DNA of 64,000 nt from NCBI GenBank assembly GCA_036505355.1, contig DASXTP010000085.1:1463-65462 (forward strand), given 5' to 3'. The DNA is from Candidatus Eiseniibacteriota bacterium. GTDB lineage: Bacteria; Eisenbacteria; RBG-16-71-46. This document shows positions 14,669 to 44,554 of the stretch, in pieces. The notes beneath the pieces were generated by a model. It made no database searches. It saw nothing but the letters and a program-made list of their open reading frames with translations, and was not told the DNA's origin. The stretch's first letter is position 1. The number at the start of each line of letters is the position of its first letter. A program made the position numbers and the translations under genes.

Positions 14669-14844
14669 TCCGGGGCCGAGAATCGAGACCGCACGAAACG
14701 CTTGACGTGACCCCCTGGTCTCGATAACCGTCTCCGCGCCACCATCAGGGTCCCCCAGGATCCAAGCGACATCGCCGTCTTCCCAACTCGGTCGGAGCGC
14801 GGCCGTGAGACGCCACGGTGCTCCCGAACCGGAGGAGCGCGCCC

Positions 14845-15768
14845 ATGATGAGCCGCGGTGTGGTGTTCTCTCTCGCCTTGCTCGCCGCCTCGCTGTCGAT
14901 GCTGGTCATGGCCCGGCCGCCGTCCTCGCAGTCGGCGCCCCACGCCGTCGGCTCGGAGGCGTGCAAGGACTGCCACCAGGACCAGTGGCAGGCCTTCCAG
15001 CACAACCCCCATGCCCGGGCCGAGATGGACCAGGCGGTGGTGGCCGACCAGGTCGGCTGCGAGTCGTGCCACGGCCCCGGATCGGCTCACGTCGAGGCGG
15101 GAGGCGACCGCTCGGACCCGGGGTTCGCCTCGATCCGCAACTTCAAGACCCTCTCCGCCAAGGACGCCAGCGAGGTGTGCGCGTCCTGCCACAAGGCCGG
15201 CGAGCAGTTCTACTGGGAACACAGCAGCCACGCGCGCAACGACGTCTCGTGCGTCCAGTGCCACAGCATCCACCATGCGAAGAACGAGGGAGCCGGCCCG
15301 ATGCTGACGGCAAGCGACGTCAACCACCTGTGCATCACCTGCCACAAGGACAAGCGTGCCGCGCTGGCGCGCTCGGCGCACATGCCGCTCCGCGAAGGAA
15401 GCATGACCTGCGTGGACTGCCACAATCCGCATGGCGCGCCGGCGGCGCGCATGATCCGGGCCGCGACCGTCAACGAGCTGTGCTACAAGTGCCACGCGGA
15501 CAAGCGTGGGCCGTTCCTGTGGGAGCACCCGCCGGTGCGCGAGAACTGTCTCAACTGTCACCAACCACATGGCTCGAACAACGACAAGGTGCTGGCGGGC
15601 AAGCGACCGTATCTGTGCCAGCGCTGCCACGTCGGGACCCGGCATCCGAGCACCCTCTACGACAAGCCCGACCTGCTCGCGAACCGGCTGTTCAACCGCT
15701 CCTGCACCAACTGTCACAGCCAGATCCACGGGTCGAACCACCCGTCGGGCAAGTACTTCCACCGATAG
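14845..15768 (+). CDS. mtrA: periplasmic decaheme c-type cytochrome, MtrA/DmsE (MtoA/PioA) family
   Basis: Ten CXXCH motifs counted: CKDCH, CESCH, CASCH, CVQCH, CITCH, CVDCH, CYKCH, CLNCH, CQRCH and CTNCH. It has a signal peptide and a C-terminus (CTNCHSQIHGSNHPSGKYFHR) typical of the family. I chose the ATG at 14845 because GGAGGA lies 8 nt upstream. Confidence 0.9.
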   Translation: MMSRGVVFSLALLAASLSMLVMARPPSSQSAPHAVGSEACKDCHQDQWQAFQHNPHARAEMDQAVVADQVGCESCHGPGSAHVEAGGDRSDPGFASIRNFKTLSAKDASEVCASCHKAGEQFYWEHSSHARNDVSCVQCHSIHHAKNEGAGPMLTASDVNHLCITCHKDKRAALARSAHMPLREGSMTCVDCHNPHGAPAARMIRAATVNELCYKCHADKRGPFLWEHPPVRENCLNCHQPHGSNNDKVLAGKRPYLCQRCHVGTRHPSTLYDKPDLLANRLFNRSCTNCHSQIHGSNHPSGKYFHR

Positions 15769-15772
15769 GAGG

Positions 15773-17986
15773 ATGCTCATGACGACCCTGAGACTTGCAG
15801 TCGCGACGGCGCTCGCGTGCGGCATGGTCGTGAGCGCGTTCTGTCCGGTGGCGCGGGCCGGCGAGGGCGAGGTCTCCTTCGGCTCCCAGTGGTGGGATCA
15901 GACGGTCCGGGACGCCAAGTACGACGAGTTCAGCCAAGTGCCGCGGGGGGGCTTCCTCGAGTCGTTCGTGCTGCGCGAATGGTCGGGGCGAAACAGCCTG
16001 GCGCTGTGGGGCGCCAACGGGCTGCGCAGCGACCAGGCCTCGAAGCTCACCTGGGCGAACGGTGCGCGCTGGCGCGTGGATCTCGGCTACACGCAGATTC
16101 CCCACCAGTTCAGCCATACCGCGCGCTGGGGATGGACCCAGACCGCCCCGGGCGTTTTTACGCTGCCGGACACACTGCAGGCGCGGAACCAGGCCCTCCC
16201 GACCAGCTACACGCCGCGGATGGCGGACTTCCTGGCCGACGCGCCGACCATCAAGCTCGGATTCGACACCCACATCTCGAATGCCCGGTTGCGGGCGCGA
16301 CCAGCGAGGGGCTGGCAGTTCGAGGCCCGAGGCACCATGCGCGAGCGGTCGGGACAGAAGCCCTATGCCCTGGATTTCGGCTTCAGCACCGCTCTCGAGA
16401 ACCCCGAGCCGATCAACCAGCGCATGGTGGACGCGGACTTGATCGCCAGCTACCAGCGCAGCCGGTTGAGAGCCCAGGCGAGCGTGGGGCTTTCCACCTT
16501 CGACAACGCGATCAGCACGCTGATCGTGGACAACCCCAAGCGGAATTTCGACACCAAGGGTGGCGACGGGCCGAGGGTGGGGCAACTCGACCTCTACCCG
16601 GACAACCAGGTGGTGCGCGGCTCGCTGGCTCTCTCCTACCTGCTGCCGAAGCGCACCGCGATCGCGGCCACGCTCGGCATCGCTCAGGGGAAGCAGGACG
16701 ACGACTTCCTGCCGTTCACGACCAACACCCTGGTGGACACCATAGGAGGAGACCTCAGTACCATAGGCAACAAGACGACCCTCGACTCGCTCGCGGCGCG
16801 GAGACTGGACGGGAAGACCACCCAGCTCAACGGGGACGTCCGGCTCACCACCAGCCCGGTGCGGGGTCTCGATGGAACCCTGCGGTTCCACTACACCGAC
16901 TACGACGACCGCACCGAGGAGCGGAACTGGATCGGCCAGACGCCCTACGACGTGACGTGGCAGCGTTTCATCGAGCTCGAGAGCGGGCCACACGGCAACA
17001 CGCAATGGCAGGGCGGGGTCGACGCGGACTACGCTTTCGCCTCGCAGTTCAGGCTGGGGGTCATCGCCGAGTATCGCTCGCGGGAGCGCGAGGAGCGTGA
17101 GGTAGAGAAGGACCACGAGACGGTGCTGGGCGGCCGCACGCGACTGCGCCCATGGGATGGGTTCGAAGTCTCGGGCCGCTACACGCATGGCGACCGTAAG
17201 CTGGACGAGTTCCTGGGCGAGGACTACATCGGTTTACGCACCCGCTTCGACCCGACGGCCCCCGGGCTCTACGACTCCCTGGGACAGCTCGAGCAACCCG
17301 ACCTGCGGCGGTTCGACGTCGCGAACCGCGTCCAGGATCTGGCCACGGTGGGCGCGTCCTACGCCTTCGGCGAACGCCTGGACCTGTCGGCGAGCTACGA
17401 CTACCTCAAGAACGATTACAAGGACACGAAGTTCGGCCTTCAGGACGAGACGCAACACACGGCAGCCGCCAACGCGACCTGGCACTTCAATGACCAGGTC
17501 GACCTCGACTGGGGAGGCGGCTACAGCGAGACCGAGACCAACCAGGCGTCGCGACAATCGGGCTCGTCGATCCCCTCCACCTCGTCCCTCGACGACTGGG
17601 GCGCCGACTTGAAGGACCGGGACGGCTTCGCGGCCGCAGGGTTCGAGTGGACTCCCAAGGGAAGGATCTCGCTCTCGGGCAGGTACCAGCTGAGCGTGCA
17701 CGACGCGAAGTTCGATCTGAGCAATGCCACGAGCACCGCACAGGACCTCCCGACGACGATCTACCGTCGACACGAATCGCTCTTGGACGCGAGCTGGCGA
17801 TGGCTCGAGAGCACGACCGTCGTGGGGCGCTGGGGCTGGGAGGAGTACGACGTCGACGACTGGGCTACCAACGACGTGCCGCTCATCTTCCCGGTCACCG
17901 GCACCGCGACGGCGATCTTCCTGGGGGACAGCGCCCGCAGCTACAAAGCGCACCGAGTCGCCCTGCTGGTGAAGCACCGCTTCTGA
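15773..17986 (+). CDS. mtrB: MtrB/PioB-family decaheme-associated outer-membrane beta-barrel protein
   Basis: ATG at 15773 directly after AGGAGG, 4 nt downstream of the mtrA stop. About 737 aa with a signal peptide, an alternating beta-strand pattern rich in Y/W/D/G, and a C-terminal ...LLVKHRF. It follows the decaheme gene as in mtrAB, pioAB and mtoAB. Confidence 0.85.
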   Translation: MLMTTLRLAVATALACGMVVSAFCPVARAGEGEVSFGSQWWDQTVRDAKYDEFSQVPRGGFLESFVLREWSGRNSLALWGANGLRSDQASKLTWANGARWRVDLGYTQIPHQFSHTARWGWTQTAPGVFTLPDTLQARNQALPTSYTPRMADFLADAPTIKLGFDTHISNARLRARPARGWQFEARGTMRERSGQKPYALDFGFSTALENPEPINQRMVDADLIASYQRSRLRAQASVGLSTFDNAISTLIVDNPKRNFDTKGGDGPRVGQLDLYPDNQVVRGSLALSYLLPKRTAIAATLGIAQGKQDDDFLPFTTNTLVDTIGGDLSTIGNKTTLDSLAARRLDGKTTQLNGDVRLTTSPVRGLDGTLRFHYTDYDDRTEERNWIGQTPYDVTWQRFIELESGPHGNTQWQGGVDADYAFASQFRLGVIAEYRSREREEREVEKDHETVLGGRTRLRPWDGFEVSGRYTHGDRKLDEFLGEDYIGLRTRFDPTAPGLYDSLGQLEQPDLRRFDVANRVQDLATVGASYAFGERLDLSASYDYLKNDYKDTKFGLQDETQHTAAANATWHFNDQVDLDWGGGYSETETNQASRQSGSSIPSTSSLDDWGADLKDRDGFAAAGFEWTPKGRISLSGRYQLSVHDAKFDLSNATSTAQDLPTTIYRRHESLLDASWRWLESTTVVGRWGWEEYDVDDWATNDVPLIFPVTGTATAIFLGDSARSYKAHRVALLVKHRF

Positions 17987-18137
17987 GGGAGGCCGATGGA
18001 GGCTCCACCCGGAGCCGGGGGCCGGAGGGAACCTCCGGCCCCGGTCTCCGAGACATCGAGGCTGGATACTCCCATTGCCGCCGCCGGCCTAGTCATCTTG
18101 ACGCTGGACCGAGCAAAGGGGGAGGATGGGCCCTGTG

Positions 18138-27184: not shown

Positions 27185-27199
27185 TGGCACGATCGCTGC
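27185..27199 (+). promoter_or_regulatory. candidate sigma-54 promoter upstream of the Cyc2-like gene
   Basis: TGGCACG-ATCG-CTGCC has exact GG-N10-GC spacing and follows the same TGGCACG-N4-NTGCC pattern as 22576-22590. It ends 43 nt upstream of the ATG at 27242. Confidence 0.6.
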
Positions 27200-27241
27200 C
27201 CTTTCAGGCGGTTGCCGTCCCACGCGAAAGGAGGATCCCAG

Positions 27242-28519
27242 ATGAGGGCCACACGTGTCGCCGCCGTAGCACTCGTCGGCTCGGTCACCGTGGTGCTGAT
27301 CTACGGCACCGCCTTCAACATGCCGATGTTCACGCGCAAGTACGATCTGGAATGCGGGTCCTGCCACCTGGTGATTCCCAAGCTGACCGAGATGGGGTTG
27401 AACTTCCGCGCCGCCGGGTTCCGGCTGCCCGACGACATCGGGGCGGAGGACAAGGAGGTCAACAACGTCAGCACCCAGATGTCGACGCGCCTTCAGACCC
27501 GCTACGACGCGGCGCGCACGGACAACGCCGGCGTCAAGTCCGACAAGAGCCAGTTCACCTTTCACGAAGTGACCTTCTACCCGCTCACCGGCGCCTTCGC
27601 CCGCAACTACTCGTCGCTGTTCGAGCTGTCGATCGGGCCCGAGGAGCCGGTCGAGATCGAGAACGCTTATGTCCGCGGCGATTGGAAGGCGGGCCAGGGA
27701 TTCGCGTCCGCGCGGGTCGGGGTCTTCCACCCGTTCGAGGGCTTCGGGGCCTCGGATCGCCCGACGTCTCTGAGCCGGCCGCTGTTCCAGACCACGTCGG
27801 CCAACTTCAACCAGAAGACGTTCTTCACACCGTGGGGGTTCGACGAGTCGGGGGTGGAGCTGGGCTATACCATGAACCGCACCTCGGTCCGCGCCACGCT
27901 GTTCAACGGGCTCACCTTCGATCCGGAGGAGGGAATCGCGCATCCCGCACAGACCGGATCCGGCGGCAACGCCTTCGCCAAGGACCCCAACCGGCCCGAC
28001 TTCCACAACGTGGACGTGCAGCTCTTCGCCAACCAGATCCTGAGCCCGAACGGCGGCGGCGTGTCGCTCTTCTATTACAAGGGAGCTCTCGCCTTGCCGG
28101 TGGACAACGATCCCGACGCCCTGCTCGGCTACTTCCAGAACGACTTCTACCGCGCGGCGGCGTACGCCTCGTACCCGGTGGTGAGCCGGCTGATCCTGAT
28201 GGCCGGCGGGCAGACCGGTCAGGACGAGACCTACACGTCGGCCGGCGGCTTCGGCCCCAAGTCCACCAGCCAAGGCGCCTTCGGCGAGGCCGACGTGGAC
28301 TTGAGCAAGAACTACTGGCTGGCGGGGCGCTACGACTGGTTCGATCCCACCGACGAGAAGGACGACAACGAGATCCAGGCGATCACCGTGGCGCTCAACA
28401 AGCCGTTCAACAACGGCCTGCAGTTCATCTCGGAGTACCAGCACAAGCAGACCAAGCAGGGCACCAGCGCCGACAAGAAGGACGATGCCTTCCAGACCCG
28501 ATTGATCTGGATCTGGTGA
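27242..28519 (+). CDS. fused monoheme c-type cytochrome / outer-membrane beta-barrel protein (Cyc2-like architecture)
   Basis: The ATG at 27242 is preceded by GAAAGGAGGA. The protein is 425 aa with an N-terminal hydrophobic signal. A single CXXCH (CGSCH, nt 27353-27367) sits in the context PMFTRKYDLECGSCHLVIPKLTEMG. The remaining ~380 aa are rich in Gly, aromatic and polar residues with a beta-strand-like alternation, ending ...FQTRLIWIW (aromatic terminus as in OM barrels). The call is architecture-level only; I could not verify homology to Cyc2. Confidence 0.6.
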   Translation: MRATRVAAVALVGSVTVVLIYGTAFNMPMFTRKYDLECGSCHLVIPKLTEMGLNFRAAGFRLPDDIGAEDKEVNNVSTQMSTRLQTRYDAARTDNAGVKSDKSQFTFHEVTFYPLTGAFARNYSSLFELSIGPEEPVEIENAYVRGDWKAGQGFASARVGVFHPFEGFGASDRPTSLSRPLFQTTSANFNQKTFFTPWGFDESGVELGYTMNRTSVRATLFNGLTFDPEEGIAHPAQTGSGGNAFAKDPNRPDFHNVDVQLFANQILSPNGGGVSLFYYKGALALPVDNDPDALLGYFQNDFYRAAAYASYPVVSRLILMAGGQTGQDETYTSAGGFGPKSTSQGAFGEADVDLSKNYWLAGRYDWFDPTDEKDDNEIQAITVALNKPFNNGLQFISEYQHKQTKQGTSADKKDDAFQTRLIWIW

Positions 28520-28554
28520 GCCGCACCGGCCGAGGAGCCGGCAAGGCGGCGGAT

Positions 28555-28582
28555 GCGGGCGGGGGCCGATGCTCCCGCCCGC
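28555..28582. terminator. GC-rich hairpin between convergent genes (probable bidirectional terminator)
   Basis: GCGGGCGGG-ggccgatgct-CCCGCCCGC forms a perfect 9-bp stem, followed by TTCGTCGTT. It lies between the Cyc2-like stop (28519) and the convergent acyl-CoA synthetase stop (28642). Confidence 0.5.
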
Positions 28583-28641
28583 TTCGTCGTTCCGGGTACG
28601 ACCCAGCCAGCGGCCGGAGGGGCCCGAGGCGAGGCCGCCTC

Positions 28642-30870
28642 TCAGCCCCGTCGCACCGCTACCCGCGCGTCGACCGCCAGGCATCCTCTCCCGGGTGGGA
28701 GCACCTTGAGCGGGTTCAAGTCCATCTCGGCGATCTCGGGGTGCTCACCCACCAGCTGGGAGAGCCTCAGCAGCGTCTCCTCTAGGGCCGCCACGTCGGC
28801 GGGCGGCGCCCCCCGGTATCCCTCGAGCAGCGGATAGCCGCGCACCGAGCGCACCAGCTCGCGGGCTTCCCGGTCGGTCAGCGGCTGGATCCGGAACGCG
28901 ACGTCGCGCAACAGCTCGACGTGTACGCCCCCCATGCCGAACATCAGGATCGGGCCGAAGGACCGGTCGTGGGTGACCCCGACGATGGTCTCGATCCCCT
29001 CGCTCACCATGGGCTGCACCACCACCCCGGCCATCTGATCCCGCAGGCCCCGACTCTGAAGGCGCCGCTCCATCGCCTCGAAGGCCTCGCGCACCTCGTC
29101 CGCGCTCCTGAGATCGAGGGCCACGCCGCCCACGTCGGACTTGTGGAGGATGGTGCCGGAGACCAGCTTCATCGCGACCGGAAAGCCGAGGCGCCGCGCC
29201 GCCTCGACCGCCGCCTCGGCCCGACTCGCCTGAACCGTGGCCGGGGTCGCGATCCGATAGGCGCCCAGCAGCTCGCGCACCTCGTCGACTTCGAGCCACA
29301 CGTTCGCGCCTTCGCGCGCGCGCCCCAGTGCGGCGGAGAGCGCCGCCGCCGCCCGCGCGGCGTCCACGTCCTCGAAGCGCATCACCTTGCCCTCGGGCTC
29401 CGCCAGCCAGCGCCCATAGCGCACCGCCCGCGCCAACGCGATGGCGGCCGACTCCGGGAACGCGTACGAAGGGATGTGGGCCTGGTGCAGCGACCGCAAG
29501 CCCTCCGGCACGCCGTGTGAGCCCATGAAGCACGACAGCACCGGCTTCGCCGGCTCGCCGCGGTCCTCCGCTTCCCGCGCGGCGGCGGACGCTCCCCGCA
29601 CGATGGCCTGCGCCACGTCGAGCGGCGTGGTGACCATGGGCGGCACGTAGATCGCCAGCACCGCGTCGACGCTCGCGTCCCCGGCCACCCGGTGCACCGT
29701 CTTCTCGAACGCTCCGGCGGTGGCCGAAGCGATCATGTCGACCGGGTTGCGCGTGCTCGCCTCGCGGGGCAGGAAGGCGCGGAGCGCGTCCACGGTCGCC
29801 TCGCCCAGGGCCGGGATCTCGAGACCATGGCTCTCGCACGCATCGGAAGCCATGATGCCCGGCCCGCCGGCGTTGGTCACGATCGCGACCCGGTTCCCGC
29901 GGGGCACCGGTTGGTTGGCGAGCAGGATGGCGACATCGAAGAGCTGCTCGATGGTGTCGGTGCGGATCACGCCCGACTGGCGGAACAGCGCGTCCACCGC
30001 CACGTCGGAGCCGGCCAGGGAGCCGGTGTGGGAGGCGGCTGCCCGCACGCCGGCGCGGGTGCGTCCGCTCTTCACCGCGACGATCGGCTTCTTCCTTCCG
30101 ACTCGACGAGCGATCTGCGTGAAGCGCCGAGGGTTCCCGAACGACTCGAGGTACAGCAGGATCACGCCGGTCCCCGGGTCCTGCTCCCAGAACTCGAGCA
30201 GATCGTTGCCCGACACGTCGGCCTTGTTGCCGACGCTGATGAAGTGCGAGACGCCGAGGTTGAGCTCGGCGGCGTATTCGAGGATGGCGAGCCCGAGCGC
30301 TCCACTCTGGGACGAAAAGGCGACCTTGCCCGCGGGCGGATAGACAGGGGCGAACGTGGCATCCATCTGGACGGCGGTCTCGGTGTTGATCACCCCCAGG
30401 CAGTTGGGACCCACGAGCCGCATGCCGAAGCGCTGCGCGCACGCGCGCAGCGCACCCTCGCGCTCGGCGCCCTCGGCGCCGGTCTCCTTGAAACCGGCGC
30501 TGATGACCACCACGGCGCGCACCCCCTTCTCGCCGCATGCCGCGACGACTTCCAGCGCGTGCGCGGCCGGGACCACCACCACGGCCAGGTCCACGGAGCC
30601 GGGCACTTCCCGGATCGACGGATAGGCCAGGACCGACTGGACCACCTGCGCCCTGGGATTCACCGGGTAGACGGGGCCGGCGAAGCCGCGCGACACCAGG
30701 TTGTGAAAGATCTCGGCGCCGATGGTGCCGCGCTCCCGGGAGGCGCCGATGACGGCGATCGAGCGCGGCCGGAACACCGCCAAGAGGCCGTGGTCCGAAG
30801 CGAGGTTCGGCTCGGATTCACGATTCACGGGAGCCAGCAGGTCGCCTACCGCGCCTTCCGATGGGGTCAC
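28642..30870 (-). CDS. ADP-forming acetyl/acyl-CoA synthetase family protein (CoA-binding + succinyl-CoA-ligase-like + ATP-grasp domains)
   Basis: FRPRSIAVIGASRERGTIGAEIF...YPVNP is a CoA-binding motif, and the C-terminal region is ATP-grasp-like. I prefer the GTG start at 30870 because AAAGGAG lies 6 nt upstream; the longest ORF starts at 30903. There is no C-terminal GNAT domain. Confidence 0.85.
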   Translation of the reverse strand: MTPSEGAVGDLLAPVNRESEPNLASDHGLLAVFRPRSIAVIGASRERGTIGAEIFHNLVSRGFAGPVYPVNPRAQVVQSVLAYPSIREVPGSVDLAVVVVPAAHALEVVAACGEKGVRAVVVISAGFKETGAEGAEREGALRACAQRFGMRLVGPNCLGVINTETAVQMDATFAPVYPPAGKVAFSSQSGALGLAILEYAAELNLGVSHFISVGNKADVSGNDLLEFWEQDPGTGVILLYLESFGNPRRFTQIARRVGRKKPIVAVKSGRTRAGVRAAASHTGSLAGSDVAVDALFRQSGVIRTDTIEQLFDVAILLANQPVPRGNRVAIVTNAGGPGIMASDACESHGLEIPALGEATVDALRAFLPREASTRNPVDMIASATAGAFEKTVHRVAGDASVDAVLAIYVPPMVTTPLDVAQAIVRGASAAAREAEDRGEPAKPVLSCFMGSHGVPEGLRSLHQAHIPSYAFPESAAIALARAVRYGRWLAEPEGKVMRFEDVDAARAAAALSAALGRAREGANVWLEVDEVRELLGAYRIATPATVQASRAEAAVEAARRLGFPVAMKLVSGTILHKSDVGGVALDLRSADEVREAFEAMERRLQSRGLRDQMAGVVVQPMVSEGIETIVGVTHDRSFGPILMFGMGGVHVELLRDVAFRIQPLTDREARELVRSVRGYPLLEGYRGAPPADVAALEETLLRLSQLVGEHPEIAEMDLNPLKVLPPGRGCLAVDARVAVRRG

Positions 30871-31861: not shown

Positions 31862-32521
31862 CTACCCTGGCCCGCCCTCGGCGATGGTCTCCCGCAGCCG
31901 CTCGGCAGACGGGATGAGGAAGCGTTTCTGCCCGCTGACGAGCACGCCCTCGCGCCCCCAGCGCGACAGCACGCGGATCGCCGACTCGACGGTGGTGCCC
32001 ACCAGGTCGGCAACCTCCTGGCGCGACAACTCGAGCGGGATCTCGATTCCCTCGTCGGTCTTGCGACCCATGCGATCGGCGAGCGACAGGAACAGCTGTC
32101 CGATCCGCGCGTCGACCCGCTGGCCGCGCATCTCCTCGAGCTTGCGGGTGAGCGCGATGACGAGCTTGGTAAGCTCGCGGATCACGGCGCGCGCGAAGTC
32201 GGGATGACGGTCGAGCAGCTCGAAGTAATCGCGCCGCGGCAAGGTGAGCAGCGTGACCTCCTCGAGGCAGATCGCGCTGGCCGGGTACGGGATATAATTG
32301 TAGACGGCGATTGCGCCCACCGGCTCGCCGGCGCCGAAGATCTCGAGGATCACGTCACCGCTCTCGGCGTGGCGCACGATCTTGACGCGCCCGCGCACGA
32401 TCACCGTCAGGTGCTCGGCCGGATCGCCGGCGCGCCACAAGGACTCGCCGCGCCGATAGTCGCGCAGCGTGGCCAGGGCCACGAGGCGGGCCTGATCGTC
32501 GCGCGAAAGGCCGCGAAACAC
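31862..32521 (-). CDS. Crp/Fnr-family transcriptional regulator
   Basis: 219 aa with an N-terminal cNMP-binding-like beta-roll and a C-terminal HTH (LSRQEVADLVGTTVESAIRVLSRW). No N-terminal Cys cluster is seen, so it is not a classical Fe-S FNR. Confidence 0.88.
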   Translation of the reverse strand: MFRGLSRDDQARLVALATLRDYRRGESLWRAGDPAEHLTVIVRGRVKIVRHAESGDVILEIFGAGEPVGAIAVYNYIPYPASAICLEEVTLLTLPRRDYFELLDRHPDFARAVIRELTKLVIALTRKLEEMRGQRVDARIGQLFLSLADRMGRKTDEGIEIPLELSRQEVADLVGTTVESAIRVLSRWGREGVLVSGQKRFLIPSAERLRETIAEGGPG

Positions 32522-32597
32522 CGGCAGCGACCGGATCGCGGACCGAATCCTCTCCGTGCGGATGTCCTTTCCCAGGACGCGCCTCCAAGGGTGGGCG

Positions 32598-32613
32598 TAT
32601 GACGACGATCATA
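32598..32613. promoter_or_regulatory. candidate Crp/Fnr-family binding site (TGA-N6-TCA palindrome)
   Basis: TATGA-cgacga-TCATA is a perfect 5-bp inverted repeat with a 6-nt spacer. It lies in the divergent region between the crp/fnr gene (start 32521) and the hemerythrin-cytochrome-nosZ operon. Confidence 0.45.
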
Positions 32614-32783
32614 TCCGCTCGGCGGACCTGGGGTGCAACCCGCGGTCCGTCGGGGGGTTCCGGAGCTCGGCGCGGGCGAGAAAAAGGCCCCCGGGGCTGA
32701 CCCCCGTCATGGTCCGGAGGTTCCGCGGCGACGATCCTAATTCCAGGAGCAGGAGAAAAGCGGCTGCGCCCCGGAGGATTCGC

Positions 32784-33311
32784 TTGACCCCGCCGTCGGT
32801 GTTCGGAAACCTGCGCCGCGAGCACCGCATGGTGCTCGCCCGGCTCGCGCGGCTCGAGCGGTCGGTCGCGGGCACCACGTCGCGGGGGCGGGCGCGAGCG
32901 GAAAAGGAGATGGCCCAGGTCGTGCGACTGCTGGAGCGACAGTTCGCCACGCATATGTCGGCCGAGGCGCGCGTGCTGTTCCCCGCCCTCTTGAAGGTGT
33001 TGCCCGAAGCGGGCGCGAGCATCGCGCCGCTCGAGGGTGAGCACGCCGAGCTGCGGAGCATCCTGGCGAGCCTTCGGGCCACCCTGAGGCGGCCCTGGGA
33101 AGAGGGGCGCGACGAACAGATCGCGGTGCTGGCGCGCGATCTGGTGGACTTGCTCCGTATCCACATTCGCAAGGAGGAGTCGGTGATCTTCCGTGTCGCC
33201 GAGCGGGTGCTGCCCGCCCGCGAGGTGGCGCGTCTCGAGGCATGGCGCTCGAGGAAGGCGAAGCGCTCCACTCCAAGGCCCGAATCCGGGCGATCGAAAG
33301 GAGAGCGATGA
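32784..33311 (+). CDS. hemerythrin-domain protein
   Basis: The frame of ORF 32556..33311 carries hemerythrin-like His/Glu motifs (LRREHRMV, FATHMSAEARVLFPAL, LEGEHAELR, HIRKEESVIF). I prefer the TTG start at 32784 because GGAGGA lies 5 nt upstream; alternative starts are 32709 and 32556. The stop overlaps the next gene as ATGA. Confidence 0.65.
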   Translation: MTPPSVFGNLRREHRMVLARLARLERSVAGTTSRGRARAEKEMAQVVRLLERQFATHMSAEARVLFPALLKVLPEAGASIAPLEGEHAELRSILASLRATLRRPWEEGRDEQIAVLARDLVDLLRIHIRKEESVIFRVAERVLPAREVARLEAWRSRKAKRSTPRPESGRSKGER

Positions 33312-33781: not shown

Positions 33782-33792
33782 GAGGATTCGCC

Positions 33793-35700: not shown

Positions 35701-35714
35701 GCCGCTGGGAACTC

Positions 35715-35741
35715 GCCGGCCGGGTTCGATCCCCGGCCGGC
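35715..35741 (+). promoter_or_regulatory. strong intercistronic stem-loop between nosZ and nosB
   Basis: GCCGGCCGGG-ttcgatc-CCCGGCCGGC forms a 10-bp perfect GC stem 15 nt after the nosZ stop. No U-tract follows it. Confidence 0.4.
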
Positions 35742-35760
35742 CGCGAGGAGGGAGCTCCGC

Positions 35761-41553: not shown

Positions 41554-43749
41554 ATGAATTCTCGACTGGAGTCGTTTCGATATGACGACGACATCGTTCG
41601 CAAGTTCCTGGTCGCCACCTTCGCCTGGGGTCTGGTGGGCATGGCCGTGGGCTTGTGGATCGCGCTGGAGCTCGCCTTTCCGGCGCTCAATCTCGCACCC
41701 TGGCTATCCTTCGGTCGCCTGCGCCCCCTGCACACCAACGCGGTCATCTTCGCCTTCGCCGGCAACGCCATCTTCACCGGCGTCTACTACTCGACGCAGC
41801 GGCTGCTCAAGGCCCGCATGTTCTCCGACCTGCTCGGGCGCCTGCACTTCTGGGGCTGGCAGCTCATCATCGTGTTGGCGGCGGTCACCCTGCCCCTCGG
41901 CTTCACGCAGGCCAAGGAGTACGCCGAGCTGGAGTGGCCGATCGACCTGCTGATTGCGGCCGTCTGGGTGATCTTCGCGGTCAACTTCTTCGGCACGCTG
42001 GCCCGCCGCCGCGAGCGCCATCTCTACGTGGCGCTGTGGTTCTACATCGCCAGCATCGTCACGGTGACGATGCTCCACATCTTCAACAACCTGTCGATGC
42101 CGGTCGGCCTCTTCAAGAGCTATTCGATCTACGCCGGCGTCCAGGACGCCTTCATGCAATGGTGGTACGGCCACAACGCGGTGGCCTTCTTCCTGACCAC
42201 GCCGTTCCTGGGCCTGATGTACTACTTCATGCCCAAGGCGGCGGACCGGCCGGTCTTCTCCTACCGGCTCTCGATCCTGCACTTCTGGACCTTGGTCTTC
42301 ATGTACATCTGGGCCGGCCCGCATCACCTCCATTACACGGCGCTCCCGGAGTGGGCGTCCACCCTGGGCATGCTGTTCTCGGTGATGCTCTGGATGCCGT
42401 CCTGGGGCGGTATGGTGAACGGTTTGCTCACGCTGCGCGGCGCCTGGCACAAAGTCGTGGACGATCCGGTGCTCAAGTTCTTCGTTGTCGCGGTGACCGC
42501 CTACGGCATGGCGACTTTCGAGGGGCCCATGCTCTCCGTGAAGAGCGTGAACGCGCTCGCGCACTACACCGACTGGATCATCGCCCACGTGCACACCGGC
42601 GCCCTGGGGTGGAACGGATTCCTCACCTTCGGCATGGTGTACTGGCTGCTGCCTCGCCTGTTCCAGACTCCGCTCCACAGCCGCCGACTTGCCGAGGCCC
42701 ATTTCTGGTTCGCCACCTTCGGCGTGATCTTCTACGTGACCGCGATCTACGGCGCCGGACTTACCCAGGGCCTGATGTGGCGTGCGTTCGACGAGACCGG
42801 TCGGCTCCAGTTCCCGGACTTCATCGAGACCACGATGAAGCTGATGCCGATGTACTGGATTCGGGCTTTCGGGGGCGGTCTGTACCTGGTCGGGATGTTG
42901 CTCTTCGGCTACAACATCCTGATGACTTGGCGGGCCCGTCCCGCCCGCTACCAGGAGCCGGTGATCCAGGCGCCGCCGCTCGACCGCCACGCCCCCGAGC
43001 ACGCGGCGACCCCCCTGTCGCAGGGCTGGTGGGCGCGCTTCACCGCGGCGGCCTGGCATCGACGCTGGGAAGGCCTGCCGATCACCTTTACCGTGATGAC
43101 GGTGGTGGCGGTGGTGGTGGCCTCCTTGTTCCAGATCTTGCCGACCTTCCTGATCCGCTCGAACGTGCCGACCATTGCGTCGGTACGGCCCTACACGCCG
43201 CTCGAGCTCGCCGGGCGGGATCTCTACATCCGCGAGGGCTGCTTCAACTGCCACTCGCAGATGATCCGCCCGTTCCGGCACGAGACCGAGCGCTACGGCG
43301 AGTACTCGAAGCCCGGCGAGTTCGTCTACGACCACCCCTTCCTGTGGGGCTCCCGGCGCATCGGGCCCGATCTCGCCCGCGAGGGCGGCAAGTACAACGA
43401 TCTTTGGCACGTGCGCCACATGGAGAACCCTCGGAGCATCACTCCGAAGTCCATCATGCCTCGGTATCCGCGGCTCCTGACCGCGCGGCTCGACTTCCCC
43501 GGCATCCAGAAGCGCGTCGACGTGATGGCCATGCTGGGGGTGCCCTACGGCGAGGCGGTGCACAGGGCCCCCGAGCTGGCGCGCGCGCAGGCGGCCGAGG
43601 TGGCGGCGCGGATCCAGACGCAGGGCGGCCCGTCCGGGCTGGGCGACCGGGAGATCGTCGCGCTGGTGGCCTACCTGCAGCGCCTCGGCACCGACATCCG
43701 CGGCGGCGCCCTGGCACGGGTCGACCCACCGGCGGCGAGGCGACCATGA
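41554..43749 (+). CDS. ccoNO: cbb3-type cytochrome c oxidase, fused subunits I and II (CcoN-CcoO)
   Basis: 731 aa. The CcoN core has the heme-copper His motifs (HTNAVIFAF, WYGHNAVAFF, HHLHYT, HVHTGALGW). The C-terminal CcoO part has CFNCHSQMIRP and WHVRHMENPRS. Confidence 0.93.
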   Translation: MNSRLESFRYDDDIVRKFLVATFAWGLVGMAVGLWIALELAFPALNLAPWLSFGRLRPLHTNAVIFAFAGNAIFTGVYYSTQRLLKARMFSDLLGRLHFWGWQLIIVLAAVTLPLGFTQAKEYAELEWPIDLLIAAVWVIFAVNFFGTLARRRERHLYVALWFYIASIVTVTMLHIFNNLSMPVGLFKSYSIYAGVQDAFMQWWYGHNAVAFFLTTPFLGLMYYFMPKAADRPVFSYRLSILHFWTLVFMYIWAGPHHLHYTALPEWASTLGMLFSVMLWMPSWGGMVNGLLTLRGAWHKVVDDPVLKFFVVAVTAYGMATFEGPMLSVKSVNALAHYTDWIIAHVHTGALGWNGFLTFGMVYWLLPRLFQTPLHSRRLAEAHFWFATFGVIFYVTAIYGAGLTQGLMWRAFDETGRLQFPDFIETTMKLMPMYWIRAFGGGLYLVGMLLFGYNILMTWRARPARYQEPVIQAPPLDRHAPEHAATPLSQGWWARFTAAAWHRRWEGLPITFTVMTVVAVVVASLFQILPTFLIRSNVPTIASVRPYTPLELAGRDLYIREGCFNCHSQMIRPFRHETERYGEYSKPGEFVYDHPFLWGSRRIGPDLAREGGKYNDLWHVRHMENPRSITPKSIMPRYPRLLTARLDFPGIQKRVDVMAMLGVPYGEAVHRAPELARAQAAEVAARIQTQGGPSGLGDREIVALVAYLQRLGTDIRGGALARVDPPAARRP

Positions 43750-43943
43750 GGCTCTCCGACGTGATGAGCCATTCGGGCCTGACGATCTATGCCGAGATCG
43801 CGCTGATCCTCTTCTTTCTCGTCTTCATCGCCGTGGTCGCCCGGACGTTCCTGCCGTCGCGGCACGACGAGTTGCGGCGGGCCAGCCGGCTGCCTCTCGA
43901 TGACGACGCCACGGACGTTCCTGGTCCAGGAGCACGCTCATGA
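43746..43943 (+). CDS. ccoQ: CcoQ/FixQ-like small membrane subunit of cbb3 oxidase
   Basis: 65 aa with a single TM helix (IYAEIALILFFLVFIAVVARTF). ATGA overlaps with both neighbours. Confidence 0.7.
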   Translation: MRLSDVMSHSGLTIYAEIALILFFLVFIAVVARTFLPSRHDELRRASRLPLDDDATDVPGPGARS

Positions 43944-44554
43944 GCCCCGATGAGAAGGACCGCAAGGAGCCCCTGCTCCTCGACCACAACTACGACGGGA
44001 TCCAGGAGTACGACAATCCACTGCCCCGCTGGTGGCTCTACCTCTTCTTCGGCACCATCGCCTACTCGATCCTGTATCTGCTCAACGTCGTCCCCTGGCT
44101 GGGCACCGGCAAGGGCCGATTGGCCAATTACGAAGCCGAGATGGCGGCCGCCCACGCCCGTCAGGCGGCGGCGCCGAGGGGCCCGATGACCGAGGCCGCC
44201 CTGCTCGCCCTGACCCGCGATCGGACGGCGCTGGCCCTCGGCCGGGAGATCTTCGTCGGCAAGTGCGCCCCCTGCCACCGCGAGGACGGCGGCGGCCTGA
44301 TCGGTCCGAACCTCACCGACGACACCTGGATCCACGGCGGCCGGCCGCTCGAGATGCTGAAGACCGTGAACGACGGCGTGCCGGCCAAAGGCATGCCCAC
44401 CTGGAGCCAGGTCCTCAAGCCGAACGAGGTGGCTGCGGTGGTGGCGTATGGCTACTCGCTGCGCGGGACGCACCCGCCCAACCCCAAGCCGCCGGAGGGG
44501 ACGAAACTCGAGACCGAGCCGTCGGCCGCCCCGGGCAGCAGCGGGCCGCCGTGA
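43940..44554 (+). CDS. ccoP: cbb3-type cytochrome c oxidase subunit III (CcoP), monoheme form
   Basis: It has the FixP N-terminal motif (HNYDGIQEYDNPLPRWWLYLFFGTI) and only one CXXCH (CAPCH). Confidence 0.85.
   Translation: MSPDEKDRKEPLLLDHNYDGIQEYDNPLPRWWLYLFFGTIAYSILYLLNVVPWLGTGKGRLANYEAEMAAAHARQAAAPRGPMTEAALLALTRDRTALALGREIFVGKCAPCHREDGGGLIGPNLTDDTWIHGGRPLEMLKTVNDGVPAKGMPTWSQVLKPNEVAAVVAYGYSLRGTHPPNPKPPEGTKLETEPSAAPGSSGPP

What the first reader, a model, noticed from the sequence alone, without database searches (positions are those of the whole stretch)
27242..28519. Cyc2-like fused monoheme cytochrome-porin candidate
The 425-aa protein has a hydrophobic signal and then a single heme-binding CXXCH (CGSCH, nt 27353-27367) within the first ~45 residues, in the context PMFTRKYDLECGSCHLVIPKLTEMG. 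About 380 residues with the composition and alternation of an outer-membrane beta-barrel follow, ending in ...RLIWIW. One N-terminal heme c fused to a roughly 16-strand-sized barrel is the defining architecture of Cyc2, the outer-membrane Fe(II) oxidase of acidophilic and neutrophilic iron oxidisers. I recall an aromatic-x-R/K motif before the CXXCH and a P-x-L after it in that family, but I cannot verify that from memory. The gene has its own sigma-54 promoter and a hairpin terminator, so it is a discrete regulated unit. It is likely to be labelled only hypothetical protein in databases.
Basis: partly seen in the sequence, partly recalled or inferred. Interest (0 to 1): 0.7.

Follow-up and report, generated by a model that had tools for sequence, protein, structure and literature searches.

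The report
Cyc2-type haem-porin fusion gene
This gene from an uncultured soil or sediment bacterium (Candidatus Eisenbacteria) encodes an outer-membrane pore fused to a one-haem cytochrome, the design iron-oxidising bacteria use to take electrons from dissolved iron; it is a divergent but recognisable member of that known family, and its role in iron oxidation is untested.

Summary
ORF 27242-28519 (+) encodes a 425-aa protein with a signal peptide and a single CGSCH at aa 38-42 holding the protein's only two cysteines. An AlphaFold model (pLDDT 91) shows a 16-strand barrel that matches 16-strand porins, including OprP and OprO.

The haem region reads NMPMFTRKY-3 aa-CGSCH-3 aa-PKL. This is a near match (5 of 7 fixed positions) to the published Cyc2 signature AXPXFAR[Q/K][T/Y]...CXXCH...PXL. 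Many homologues carry the exact motif.

A profile of the family aligns with Zetaproteobacterial Cyc2 (hhalign 97%, E 9e-11). It also finds 58 of 120 of them at E<=1e-3 for a 1.84-billion-protein library. The K-Y form of the motif matches Cluster 3 (Cyt572 type), the cluster whose function is least certain.

All close relatives come from uncultured FCB, Acidobacteriota and Myxococcota genomes. Cyc2 homologues in Eisenbacteria were already reported in FeGenie surveys.

Context supports electron transfer. In 9 of 34 related loci the gene sits beside Rieske/cytochrome b genes. The window also holds an MtrA/MtrB-like module, a dihaem cytochrome c and a cbb3 oxidase.

The sigma-54 promoter claim is weak. 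Fe(II) oxidation is inferred, not shown. Verdict: a new member of a known kind, of moderate interest.

The parts
27242..28519 (+). cyc2-like gene: 425-aa fused monohaem cytochrome c and porin precursor (stop codon included)
   Evidence: same gene call by JGI. 258+ homologues. 3661 representative clusters at E<=1e-3.
27228..27234 (+). Ribosome-binding site AAGGAGG, 7 nt upstream of the ATG
   Evidence: Read directly from the sequence. AAGGAG is conserved in the upstream alignment of four relatives.
27242..27319 (+). Signal peptide, aa 1-26 (MRATR, then a hydrophobic core, then GTAFN); the cleavage site is inferred just before M27-P28
   Evidence: Read from the sequence. Modelled as a single helix, aa 2-25. 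Homologues end this stretch with A-x-A before MP[NM]FAR. No signal-peptide predictor was available.
27317..27343 (+). Cyc2 signature region NMPMFTRKY (aa 26-34); the published motif is AXPXFAR[Q/K][T/Y]
   Evidence: Motif. 5 of 7 fixed positions match. R32 is invariant and M27, P28 and F30 are at least 90% conserved. The 3-residue spacer to the first Cys is identical in 111 of 111 family members and 106 of 107 Zetaproteobacterial Cyc2.
27353..27367 (+). Haem c attachment motif CGSCH (aa 38-42)
   Evidence: C38, C41 and H42 are invariant and these are the only two Cys in the protein.
27377..27385 (+). PKL (aa 46-48), the PXL motif after the haem site
   Evidence: P46 and L48 are invariant. Motif. 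It starts 3 residues after the His here, against 4 in Zetaproteobacterial Cyc2.
27482..28513 (+). 16-strand beta-barrel porin domain (aa 81-424)
   Evidence: AlphaFold2 pLDDT 91, pTM 0.87, with strands listed. Foldseek matches to PorB 7de8 (E 6e-12), OprP 2o4v (6e-10), OprO 4rjx and Omp32.
27728..27844 (+). Long conserved third extracellular loop (aa 163-201, FHPFEGFGASDRP...), probably the pore-constriction loop; it holds invariant H163, P164, G167, G169, D172, P174, R179, P180 and W198
   Evidence: The role as a constriction loop is inferred by analogy with loop L3 of general porins.
27185..27199 (+). Sigma-54-like -24/-12 element TGGCACGATCGCTGC (9 of 10 consensus positions), 43 nt upstream of the ATG; status uncertain
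   Evidence: 6 such matches in the window against 3.7 expected. Not conserved in L038 or L039. Perfect matches lie upstream of the homologues in L027 and L028.
28545..28591 (+). GC-rich hairpin between the convergent cyc2-like and acetyl-CoA synthetase genes; a possible terminator without a clear U tract
   Evidence: -56 kcal/mol for the 91-nt stretch, z -2.9. Not called by the terminator scan.
19877..21427 (-). Context: NtrC-type sigma-54-dependent response regulator (receiver, sigma-54 AAA+ and HTH_8 domains); coordinates are the longest ORF
   Evidence: Homologues lie within 8 kb of cyc2-like genes in L010 and L033, with a shorter ORF fragment in L004; L019 has one about 8.5-9.8 kb away.
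21225..22496 (-). Context: PAS-domain histidine kinase, partner of the regulator
   Evidence: Similar kinases lie near cyc2-like genes in L004, L010, L017 and L033, and one is divergent and adjacent in L041.
14818..15768 (+). Context: decahaem cytochrome c of the MtrA/MtoA/PioA type (10 CXXCH)
   Evidence: 60% identical to a decahaem protein about 4 kb from the cyc2-like gene in L001.
15506..17986 (+). Context: MtrB/PioB-family outer-membrane porin (longest ORF; the true start is probably after 15768)
   Evidence: PF11854, E 4e-79. A homologue lies next to the decahaem gene in L001.
18126..18896 (+). Context: dihaem c4-type cytochrome c, a candidate periplasmic electron carrier
   Evidence: two cytochrome c domains, 2 CXXCH.
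41554..44554 (+). Context: cbb3-type cytochrome oxidase genes (fused CcoN-CcoO at 41554-43749; CcoP at 43940-44554)
   Evidence: The identical CcoNO protein is labelled Candidatus Eisenbacteria bacterium at NCBI.

Best explanation
The gene encodes a member of the Cyc2 superfamily of fused cytochrome-porins.

Proposed mechanism:
- After export and signal-peptide cleavage near M27, a domain of about 50 residues carries one covalently bound haem c (C38/C41, with H42 as proximal ligand). This step is inferred from invariant motifs.
- The haem domain is tethered to the periplasmic mouth of a 16-strand outer-membrane barrel. The barrel is shown by the model; the position of the haem domain is inferred.
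- Dissolved Fe2+ enters the narrow pore, which is lined by the conserved loop 163-201. It gives one electron to the haem, and Fe3+ leaves to the outside.
- The electron passes to periplasmic c-type cytochromes. A dihaem c4-type and a monohaem cytochrome c are encoded in the window.
- From there it goes to the cbb3 oxidase encoded 13 kb downstream, or to a Rieske/cytochrome b complex, which in many relatives is encoded in the same operon.

The organism is an uncultured Candidatus Eisenbacteria bacterium. It also carries an MtrA/MtrB-type porin-cytochrome module, so it appears equipped for extracellular electron exchange.

Membership of the family is well supported. The substrate (Fe2+) and the inward direction of electron flow are inferred by homology only.
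For: Architecture:
- Signal peptide, a single invariant CXXCH at aa 38-42, and only 2 Cys in the protein.
- A 16-strand barrel in a model with pLDDT 91.
- Best structural matches are 16-strand porins, including OprP 2o4v and OprO 4rjx. These are the same templates reported for Cyc2 PV-1.

Signature:
- NMPMFTRKY-DLE-CGSCH-LVI-PKL compared with the published AXPXFAR[Q/K][T/Y]...CXXCH...PXL.
- The motif-to-Cys spacing is identical to that in Zetaproteobacterial Cyc2.

Homology:
- hhalign of the family profile against 25 Zetaproteobacterial Cyc2 gives 97% probability and E 9e-11 over the signal peptide, haem domain and first strands.
- The Zetaproteobacterial set includes proteins of the isolates M. 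ferrinatatus CP-8, M. aestuarium and M. micogutta, and was retrieved with mass-spectrometry peptides of the biochemically tested Cyc2 PV-1.
- The family HMM finds 58 of 120 of these at E<=1e-3 for a library of 1.84e9 proteins.
- Pairwise BLASTP to a Mariprofundaceae Cyc2 gives E 5e-5.
- The K-Y motif type matches published Cluster III sequences such as Leptospirillum AMPQFARKY.
- A Cyc2-like protein was published for the Eisenbacteria MAG that is the source of locus L013; it was not verified to be the L013 protein.

Context:
- In 9 of 34 genome loci from at least 5 phylum-level groups, the homologue lies within a few kb, on the same strand, of a Rieske protein and a cytochrome b fused to cytochrome c. 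It is directly adjacent in most, often with a monohaem cytochrome c.
- One relative follows a multihaem cytochrome cluster.
- The window holds a decahaem MtrA-like protein, an MtrB/PioB porin, a dihaem cytochrome c and a cbb3 oxidase.
- The decahaem/MtrB pair is also about 4 kb from the homologue in L001.
Against: - No experiment bears on this protein or on any member of its clade, and all relatives come from uncultured organisms.
- The strict Cyc2 motif is not met: N replaces A and T replaces A, so the protein would fail the PXFAR[Q/K][T/Y] filter of Keffer et al..
- A Zetaproteobacteria-only HMM scores the protein at only 21 bits.
- Sequence similarity to Cluster 1 Cyc2 is confined to the first 130-155 residues.
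- The Cyc2 authors themselves state that the function of Cluster 3 homologues is most uncertain and that Cyc2 may have other functions.
- In the window the gene is not next to cytochromes or an oxidase. It follows an NAD-type formate dehydrogenase operon.
- Gene neighbourhood varies among the closest relatives.
- Context with a bc complex is equally compatible with outward electron flow.
Confidence: 0.6

Rival explanations
1. The protein has the same fused cytochrome-porin architecture but runs outward or is non-specific. It would be the terminal outer-membrane step of a respiratory chain (quinol, then the Rieske/cytochrome b complex, then cytochrome c, then the Cyc2-like haem). That chain would reduce soluble extracellular acceptors such as chelated Fe(III), humic quinones or other redox shuttles. 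Alternatively it could work in both directions according to redox conditions.
For: - The operon link with a Rieske/cytochrome b-c complex in 9 loci fits a quinol-oxidising chain as well as an electron-uptake chain.
- In the window the gene follows an NAD-linked formate dehydrogenase operon, which is an electron-donor system.
- Relatives sit beside multihaem cytochrome clusters typical of metal reducers.
- The window holds an MtrA/MtrB-like module.
- Published surveys found Cyc2 homologues in Fe(III)-reducing taxa such as Ignavibacteriaceae, and noted taxa with genes for both directions.
Against: - All three biochemically tested family members oxidise Fe(II).
- The only measured neutrophilic potential, +208 mV for PV-1, suits electron uptake from Fe2+ better than reduction of most Fe(III) forms.
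- No Cyc2 homologue has been shown to act as a reductase.
Confidence: 0.25
2. The protein is primarily a solute porin of the OprO/OprP structural type. Its small haem domain would serve a non-respiratory role, such as sensing periplasmic or extracellular redox state, detoxifying Fe(II) or peroxide at the cell surface, or gating the pore. In this reading it makes no contribution to energy conservation.
For: - The barrel resembles anion-selective and phosphate-selective porins.
- Two homologues carry a precomputed Pfam Porin_O_P hit.
- The producing lineages are described as heterotrophs.
- In the window and its nearest relatives the gene stands alone, without cytochrome partners.
- A PAS-kinase and sigma-54 regulator pair nearby suggests conditional, stress-like expression.
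Against: - Tight operon linkage with respiratory bc-complex genes and c-type cytochromes across several phyla is hard to explain for a transport or sensing porin.
- The window protein itself gives no Pfam porin hit.
- The haem region is the most conserved part of the protein, as in Cyc2.
Confidence: 0.1
3. The protein is an ordinary beta-barrel protein in which CXXCH occurs by chance and binds no haem.
For: No direct evidence of haem attachment exists, and there is no Pfam cytochrome hit.
Against: - C38, C41 and H42 are invariant across homologues down to 40% identity, and they are the only Cys in the protein.
- The flanking motif is the published Cyc2 signature.
- 85 of 87 full-length distant representatives keep a single CXXCH at the same place.
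Confidence: 0.02

Closest known systems
Cyt572 of Leptospirillum and other Cluster 3 Cyc2 homologues (McAllister 2020, Keffer 2021)
   Same: - Fused signal peptide, single CXXCH and porin.
- The same K-Y form of the signature: published Leptospirillum AMPQFARKY...C..CH...PKL against the family consensus AMPNFARKY...C..CH..IPRL.
- Cluster 3 is where about 75% of the Cyc2 homologues in the published Southwest Indian Ridge MAG survey, which included Eisenbacteria, Gemmatimonadota and Acidobacteriota MAGs, were placed.
   Different: - No Cyt572 sequence was available here, so identity and tree position were not measured.
- The window protein has N and T where the motif has A.
- Cyt572 comes from an acidophile and has an unusual haem.
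Cyc2 of Mariprofundus ferrooxydans PV-1 and other Cluster 1 Cyc2 (Zetaproteobacteria, Gallionellaceae, Chlorobium)
   Same: - Same domain order and size (404-425 aa).
- Same spacing from the F-x-R-x-x motif to the first Cys.
- PXL after the haem site, and a 16-strand barrel modelled on OprO/OprP.
- Profile-profile homology at 97% probability.
   Different: - Q-T instead of K-Y after the Arg.
- PXL starts 4 rather than 3 residues after the His.
- Barrel sequences are not alignable, and a Zetaproteobacteria-only HMM gives just 21 bits.
- Cluster 1 proteins come from proven lithotrophic iron oxidisers; this one comes from an uncultured Eisenbacteria lineage.
[quoted passage not shown]
   Same: An outer-membrane monohaem cytochrome fused to a porin that delivers electrons to periplasmic carriers and an oxidase.
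   Different: - There is no rus-type operon (cyc2-cyc1-cup-coxBACD-rus) here and no rusticyanin in the window.
- The Acidithiobacillus motif is of the FARQT type.
- No sequence was available for direct comparison.
OprP/OprO phosphate- and diphosphate-selective porins (PDB 2o4v, 4rjx) and general 16-strand porins (PorB, Omp32, OmpU)
   Same: Barrel fold and strand number. Foldseek E 6e-12 to 2e-8, with TM-score 0.51-0.69 normalised to the target.
   Different: - Sequence identity is 8-13%, and there is no Pfam Porin_O_P hit for the window protein.
- These porins have no N-terminal haem domain.
MtrAB / MtoAB / PioAB porin-cytochrome complexes
   Same: An outer-membrane conduit that moves electrons between the outside and the periplasm. 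One such module is encoded in the same window at 14818-17986.
   Different: Those are two proteins: a decahaem cytochrome threaded through a 26-strand barrel, thought to handle solid substrates. This is one polypeptide with one haem and a 16-strand barrel, predicted to handle dissolved Fe2+.

Membership tests
Cyc2 fused cytochrome-porin family (criteria of Keffer et al. 2021 and FeGenie) | N-terminal signal peptide | tested here: met
   The sequence has a MRATR n-region, a 16-residue hydrophobic core and a GTAFN c-region. It is modelled as a helix at aa 2-25. Homologues align from M1 and end the region with A-x-A. No dedicated predictor was run.
Cyc2 fused cytochrome-porin family (criteria of Keffer et al. 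2021 and FeGenie) | Exactly one CXXCH haem-binding motif near the N-terminus | tested here: met
   CGSCH at aa 38-42, the only CXXCH and the only two Cys. It is invariant in the family.
Cyc2 fused cytochrome-porin family (criteria of Keffer et al. 2021 and FeGenie) | AXPXFAR[Q/K][T/Y] (or at least PXFAR[Q/K][T/Y]) just upstream of the CXXCH, said to be unique to Cyc2 | tested here: inconclusive
   The window has NMPMFTRKY: P, F, R, K and Y match, while both A positions differ (N and T). The strict regular expression fails. Of 111 full-length family members, 29 meet the 9-residue motif and 39 meet the 7-residue motif. The spacer to the first Cys is 3 residues in 111 of 111 family members and 106 of 107 Zetaproteobacterial Cyc2.
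Cyc2 fused cytochrome-porin family (criteria of Keffer et al. 2021 and FeGenie) | PXL motif shortly after the CXXCH | tested here: met
   PKL at aa 46-48, with P46 and L48 invariant. It starts 3 residues after the His, against 4 in Zetaproteobacterial Cyc2, and 3-5 residues in distant representatives.
Cyc2 fused cytochrome-porin family (criteria of Keffer et al. 2021 and FeGenie) | Length of at least 365 aa | tested here: met
   425 aa.
Cyc2 fused cytochrome-porin family (criteria of Keffer et al. 2021 and FeGenie) | C-terminal beta-barrel porin of about 16 strands, structurally like OprO/OprP | tested here: met
   The AlphaFold2 model (pLDDT 91, pTM 0.87) has 16 long strands that alternate short periplasmic turns with longer outer loops. 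Foldseek matches 16-strand porins, including 2o4v and 4rjx. Barrel closure was not checked on coordinates.
Cyc2 fused cytochrome-porin family (criteria of Keffer et al. 2021 and FeGenie) | Detectable sequence homology to accepted Cyc2 (blastp E<=1e-5 to a cluster representative, or a FeGenie Cyc2 HMM above cut-off) | tested here: inconclusive
   BLASTP to a Mariprofundaceae Cyc2 gives E 5e-5 and to M. ferrinatatus CP-8 gives 0.014, both pairwise. hhalign of the family against Zetaproteobacterial Cyc2 gives 97% and E 9e-11. The family HMM finds 58 of 120 Zetaproteobacterial Cyc2 at E<=1e-3 for 1.84e9 proteins. So homology is supported, but the exact published thresholds could not be applied.
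Cyc2 fused cytochrome-porin family (criteria of Keffer et al. 2021 and FeGenie) | Covalently bound haem, outer-membrane location and Fe(II) oxidase activity | not testable with these tools
   This needs expression, haem staining, spectroscopy and an Fe(II) assay.
Cyc2 Cluster 3 (Cyt572-type) | Placement within Cluster 3 of the published Cyc2 tree, or best score with the FeGenie Cluster 3 HMM | not testable with these tools
   The support is indirect only: the K-Y motif type matches the published Cluster III sequences, and about 75% of the Cyc2 homologues in the published survey that included Eisenbacteria and Acidobacteriota MAGs fell in Cluster III.
Phosphate-selective porin O and P (Pfam PF07396) | Match to the Pfam model above its gathering score | tested here: not met
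   The window protein has no hit even at E<=10. Only 2 of 120 homologues carry a precomputed PF07396 hit. The similarity is structural only.
MtrB/PioB porin-cytochrome complexes (Pfam PF11854) | 26-strand MtrB/PioB barrel partnered with a separate decahaem cytochrome | tested here: not met
   The cyc2-like protein has no PF11854 hit, has 16 strands and carries one fused haem. A genuine MtrB/PioB gene lies elsewhere in the window.

The most novel reading that the evidence does not exclude
This clade is defined by the K-Y haem motif and the invariant FHPFEG[YF]GASDRP pore loop, and is found only in uncultured Eisenbacteria, Gemmatimonadota, Bacteroidota/Ignavibacteria, Acidobacteriota, Zixibacteria and Myxococcota. 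It may be the outer-membrane entry point of a compact, horizontally spread electron-uptake module: Cyc2-like protein, monohaem cytochrome c and a dedicated Rieske/cytochrome b-c complex, in some lineages switched on by a PAS-kinase and sigma-54 regulator pair. If so, supposedly heterotrophic soil and sediment phyla could gain energy from dissolved Fe(II), which would make iron oxidation far more widespread than the known iron oxidisers suggest.
Probability: 0.3. Interest if true: 0.6.

Novelty: new member of a known kind. Interest (0 to 1): 0.35.

Why it matters
Cyc2 is the most widely used genetic marker for microbial Fe(II) oxidation. Its activity has been shown for only three proteins, none from the diverse, long-branched part of the family to which this gene seems to belong.

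The gene adds a well-resolved example with a high-confidence model and full genomic context from Candidatus Eisenbacteria, a phylum with no cultured member. It sits on a contig that also carries an MtrA/MtrB-type conduit and a cbb3 oxidase.

The recurrent operon link between this clade and a Rieske/cytochrome b complex gives a concrete, testable route from the outer membrane to the quinone pool.

If the protein oxidises iron, soil and sediment heterotrophs would contribute to iron cycling. If it does not, marker-based surveys that count such homologues overestimate iron oxidation. Either result would help calibrate those surveys.

Tried and rejected
- **Pfam and NCBIfam scans of the protein.** The only result was a sub-threshold GYD hit (15.5 bits against a cut-off of 31.4), taken as noise.
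- **Profile search of PDB sequences.** The only result was a weak match to a HORMA-domain protein over the signal and haem region (E 2.7e-4), taken as spurious. No relative has a solved structure.
- **First genome scan with the single protein.** It found nothing because the peptide patterns were too specific. The second scan used one pattern from the pore loop, so it returned only this clade and no reference Cyc2 from cultured iron oxidisers.
- **Plasmid tblastn.** No match.
- **Cluster look-up of ten distant representatives.** The few that were named all came from uncultured MAGs, so they could not be tied to named Cyc2 clusters.
- **Search with Cyc2 PV-1 peptides.** The PV-1 protein itself was not returned, but Zetaproteobacterial relatives were, including proteins of isolates.
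- **Sigma-54 promoter.** The strict pattern TGGCACG-N4-TTGCW found nothing. The looser pattern is no more frequent than chance in the window, is present upstream of only about 6 of 34 homologues, and is not conserved in the nearest relatives.
- **Rfam scan of the gene and its flanks.** No RNA family matched.
- **Functional link between the formate dehydrogenase operon and the cyc2-like gene.** Rejected as unsupported. A 66%-identical relative has the kinase directly next to the cyc2-like gene with no dehydrogenase, and other close relatives have unrelated neighbours.
Full report
**1. The observation**

ATG 27242 to TGA 28519 on the + strand gives 425 aa. AAGGAGG lies 7 nt upstream of the ATG. 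The mechanical ORF list extends the frame to a GTG at 26987, but two things support the ATG. The gene caller of the source metagenome called the same 425-aa product. Homologues also align from this Met.

CGSCH is encoded at 27353-27367 (aa 38-42). These are the only two cysteines of the protein. Of the 120 best homologues, 116 have exactly one CXXCH in the same place and most have only two Cys. The four exceptions lack the N-terminus. In a 46-sequence alignment spanning 40-77% identity to the query, C38, C41, H42, P46, L48 and R32 are invariant. The haem motif is therefore a selected feature, not chance.

**2. Structure**

AlphaFold2 with that alignment gave mean pLDDT 91 and pTM 0.87. The model has these parts:
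- a signal-peptide helix at aa 2-25;
- a small helical region at aa 27-80, which carries the CXXCH;
- sixteen long beta strands between aa 81 and 424.

I read the 16 strands from the DSSP string. The even-numbered connections are short (2-4 residues, one of 9) and so are periplasmic turns. The odd-numbered ones are mostly longer and so are outer loops. This places both termini in the periplasm. The third outer loop (aa 163-201) is long and carries the most conserved barrel residues (FHPFEGFGASDRP). By analogy with general porins it probably constricts the pore, which is an inference.

Foldseek against the PDB returned 16-strand porins first: PorB 7de8 (E 6e-12), OmpU, OprP 2o4v (E 6e-10), Omp32 and OprO 4rjx. 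OprO and OprP are the templates reported for Cyc2 PV-1 by Keffer et al.. I could not inspect coordinates, so barrel closure and the position of the haem domain are not verified.

**3. What family it belongs to**

Pfam and NCBIfam give nothing. The family is large: 258+ hits in the word-indexed search, all unnamed or 'hypothetical'. A profile search of 1.84 billion representatives gave 3661 clusters at E<=1e-3, 921 at <=1e-10 and 143 at <=1e-30.

Keffer et al. 2021 (PMC8406198) define Cyc2 by:
- a signal peptide;
- a single CXXCH;
- the motif AXPXFAR[Q/K][T/Y] upstream of it ('unique to Cyc2');
- a PXL downstream;
- a length of at least 365 aa;
- a 16-strand porin.

The window protein reads NMPMFTRKY-DLE-CGSCH-LVI-PKL. 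Five of the seven fixed motif positions match. The two alanines are replaced by N and T, so the strict filter used in that paper would reject it. Among 111 full-length family members, 29 meet the nine-residue motif and 39 the seven-residue one. All 111 have the same three-residue spacer between the motif and the first Cys, as do 106 of 107 Zetaproteobacterial Cyc2.

To compare with accepted Cyc2, I took the mass-spectrometry peptides of Cyc2 PV-1 from Table S1 of that paper and used them as a query. This returned 145 Zetaproteobacterial relatives. They include proteins of the isolates Mariprofundus ferrinatatus CP-8 (a strain listed in the paper's identity table), M. aestuarium and M. micogutta.

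The comparisons gave these results:
- Pairwise BLASTP of the window protein is weak, at E 5e-5 over 155 residues with one protein and 0.014 with CP-8. This is expected in a family whose clusters share about 18-22% identity.
- Profile against profile, the two groups align with 97% probability and E 9e-11 over the signal peptide, haem domain and first strands.
- The HMM of the window's family finds 58 of 120 Zetaproteobacterial Cyc2 at E<=1e-3 even for a library of 1.84e9 proteins, with a best score of 44 bits.
- The reverse test, a Zetaproteobacteria-only HMM against the window protein, gives only 21 bits.

So the protein is homologous to Cyc2 but is not a Cluster 1 member.

Published N-terminal alignments (supplement of PMC9769843, read through imperfect OCR) show FARQT in Clusters I and II (Gallionella, Mariprofundus, Sideroxydans, Acidithiobacillus). 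They show FARKY in Cluster III (Leptospirillum AMPQFARKY, Nitrospira, Tenderia). The window family is of the K-Y type (56 of 111 K-Y, and 2 Q-T), which points to Cluster 3. The cluster assignment is therefore indirect.

**4. Organism and distribution**

The window is part of a 127-kb contig of JGI metagenome 3300036864. Its cbb3 oxidase subunit is identical to an NCBI protein from a 'Candidatus Eisenbacteria bacterium' MAG on a contig of the same length.

The 34 genome loci that carry the pore-loop motif are all MAGs. They come from Bacteroidota/Ignavibacteria, Kapaibacterium, Kryptoniota, Eisenbacteria, Gemmatimonadota, Zixibacteria, Acidobacteriota (Thermoanaerobaculia, Vicinamibacteria, Blastocatellia) and Myxococcota. 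No cultured organism appears.

This distribution is already in the literature:
- FeGenie-based surveys reported Cyc2 homologues in Eisenbacteria, Gemmatimonadota, Acidobacteriota, Bacteroidota and others, with about 75% in Cluster III.
- One such report concerns the Eisenbacteria MAG Dive96_bin2.117, the source of locus L013, which is 45% identical to the window protein. I did not verify that the published protein is the L013 protein.
- Further reports cover Ignavibacteriales, Zixibacteria and Eisenbacteria in a deep mine, and Ignavibacteriaceae, Bacteroidetes and Verrucomicrobia in a bog lake.

**5. Genomic context**

I clustered neighbour ORFs within 8 kb of the homologue in the 34 genome loci, one metagenome locus (L036) and the window. 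The results, with Pfam confirmation, were:
- In nine loci (L002, L003, L007, L015, L019, L020, L032, L033, L034; Thermoanaerobaculia, Ignavibacteria, Gemmatimonadota, Kapaibacterium, Myxococcota, 'Deltaproteobacteria', Bacteroidota) the cyc2-like gene lies on the same strand as a Rieske iron-sulfur protein and a cytochrome b fused or paired with cytochrome c. A small monohaem cytochrome c is often present too. The genes are directly adjacent in most loci and about 3 kb apart in L019. Many of the other loci are too short to judge.
- A 420-aa relative follows a cluster of multihaem cytochromes and a cytochrome b.

In the window itself the immediate neighbours are different. Upstream is a two-gene NAD-type formate dehydrogenase operon (a NuoF-like gene at 22697-24247 and a molybdopterin subunit at 24244-26886). 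Downstream and convergent is an ADP-forming acetyl-CoA synthetase.

Within the 64 kb there are also:
- a decahaem MtrA-type cytochrome (14818-15768);
- an MtrB/PioB porin (ending at 17986; PF11854, E 4e-79);
- a dihaem c4-type cytochrome (18126-18896);
- a monohaem cytochrome c (33242-33781);
- a cbb3 oxidase with fused CcoN-CcoO (41554-43749) and CcoP (43940-44554);
- a CcoI-like copper ATPase (47196-49754).

The decahaem/MtrB pair (60% and 34% identical) lies about 4 kb from the cyc2-like gene in L001, the closest genome-collection relative. This organism therefore carries both kinds of outer-membrane electron conduit. Published descriptions of Sideroxydans lithotrophicus ES-1 list both Cyc2 and Mto pathways (abstracts).

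**6. Regulation**

A PAS histidine kinase (21225-22496, -) and an NtrC-type sigma-54 activator (19877-21427, -) lie upstream of the dehydrogenase operon. Homologous kinases and/or activators occur near the cyc2-like gene in L004, L010, L017 and L033. In a 66%-identical relative (L041) the kinase is divergent and directly adjacent to the gene, with no dehydrogenase between them. That recurrence suggests a real regulatory link in part of the family.

The promoter itself is less convincing:
- The element at 27185-27199 (TGGCACGATCGCTGC) matches 9 of 10 consensus positions at a sensible distance from the start codon.
- Matches of this quality are not enriched in the window (6 against 3.7 expected).
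- The -24 GG is lost in the 91%- and 77%-identical relatives.
- The element lies in a stretch that does not align with the 91% relative at nucleotide level.
- Perfect matches lie upstream of the homologues in L027 and L028, and 8-of-10 matches in L006, L020, L033 and L041.

I rate the sigma-54 promoter as possible, not established.

A GC-rich hairpin at 28545-28591 folds better than all but 1 of 200 shuffles (z -2.9). It lies between convergent genes, so a terminator role is plausible, though it lacks a U tract and the scan did not call it.

**7. Mechanism and rivals**

The best-supported reading is a Cyc2-type conduit. One haem sits at the periplasmic end of a narrow 16-strand pore. It exchanges single electrons between dissolved iron in the pore and periplasmic c-type cytochromes, which connect to the cbb3 oxidase or to a bc complex.

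- Shown here: the sequence motifs, their conservation, the barrel model, homology to Cyc2 and the gene neighbourhoods.
- Inferred: haem attachment, position of the haem domain, Fe2+ as substrate and the inward direction of electron flow.

All three tested Cyc2 proteins oxidise Fe(II). However, the authors caution that Cluster 3 function is most uncertain and that other functions are possible.

The main rival is outward or bidirectional electron transfer to soluble acceptors. It fits the bc-complex operons, the multihaem neighbours and the formate dehydrogenase as well as the main reading does. A non-respiratory role (sensing or detoxification) is less likely, given the operon links with respiratory genes. 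A chance CXXCH is excluded for practical purposes.

**8. Novelty and score**

This is a new, divergent member of a known kind. The architecture, the signature, the structural templates and even the presence of such genes in Eisenbacteria are already published.

What may be new, as far as my limited literature search showed:
- the recurrent operon with a Rieske/cytochrome b-c complex in this clade;
- the invariant pore-loop motif;
- the recurrent PAS-kinase and sigma-54 regulator neighbourhood.

These deserve follow-up but do not change the category. Interest is 0.35.

Noticed in passing
window 14818-17986 (+): There is a complete MtrA/MtrB (MtoAB/PioAB)-type porin-cytochrome module: a 316-aa decahaem cytochrome c (10 CXXCH) followed by an MtrB/PioB-family porin (PF11854, E 4e-79). 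A 60%-identical decahaem gene and a 34%-identical porin lie about 4 kb from the cyc2-like gene in L001.
   Followed up: partly
window 18126-18896 (+) and 33242-33781 (+): A dihaem c4-type cytochrome c lies directly after the MtrB-like gene, and a separate monohaem cytochrome c lies further on. Both are candidate periplasmic carriers between the outer-membrane conduits and the oxidase.
   Followed up: partly
window 41554-44554 (+) and 47196-49754 (+): A cbb3-type oxidase cluster is present, with CcoN and CcoO fused in one 731-aa protein, plus CcoP and a CcoI-like copper-transporting P-type ATPase. The identical CcoNO protein is labelled Candidatus Eisenbacteria bacterium at NCBI, which gives the likely origin of the window.
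   Followed up: partly
window 26925-27030 (+), between the formate dehydrogenase gene and the cyc2-like gene: This stretch holds a remnant of a cold-shock protein gene. 13 codons are 92% identical to the intact 66-aa CSD gene at the same position in the 91%-identical relative L038. The intergenic region is remodelled here (322 nt against 735 nt) and does not align at nucleotide level, whereas the flanks are 98% and 93% identical.
   Followed up: partly
window 22576-22590 (+): A second sigma-54-like element (TGGCACGGAGCGTGC, 9 of 10) lies in the divergent intergenic region between the PAS kinase gene and the NuoF-like/formate dehydrogenase operon, about 107 nt before the NuoF-like start. It may be the real target of the adjacent sigma-54 activator.
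   Followed up: no
L002, L003, L007, L015, L019, L020, L032, L033, L034 (for example L007 265-4129): There is a conserved gene cluster in relatives from several phyla: cyc2-like, sometimes a monohaem cytochrome c, a Rieske protein, then cytochrome b with a C-terminal mono- or dihaem cytochrome c. In L007 the gaps are short or the genes overlap.
   Followed up: partly
L035/L036 1-7804: Upstream of a 56%-identical homologue lies a cluster of multihaem cytochromes (NapC/NirT-type and MtrC/MtrF-like domains, one with 10 CXXCH), a cytochrome b and a 647-aa protein with no Pfam hit that could be a large porin.
   Followed up: no
window 31862-33311: A Crp/Fnr-type regulator (-) and a hemerythrin-domain protein (+) are divergently arranged about 3.3 kb downstream of the cyc2-like gene. 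They could be an oxygen- or redox-responsive pair.
   Followed up: no
window 33778-36453 (-) and 33193-35700 (+): Two long overlapping ORFs lie on opposite strands (891 aa and 835 aa). The minus-strand one has no Pfam hit, and which of the two is real was not resolved. High GC (69%) produces many such shadow ORFs across the window, including 26999-28684 (-) opposite the cyc2-like gene.
   Followed up: no
L002 5198-6631 (-) and 8100-9494 (+): This Thermoanaerobaculia locus carries two cyc2-like paralogues within 4 kb.
   Followed up: no
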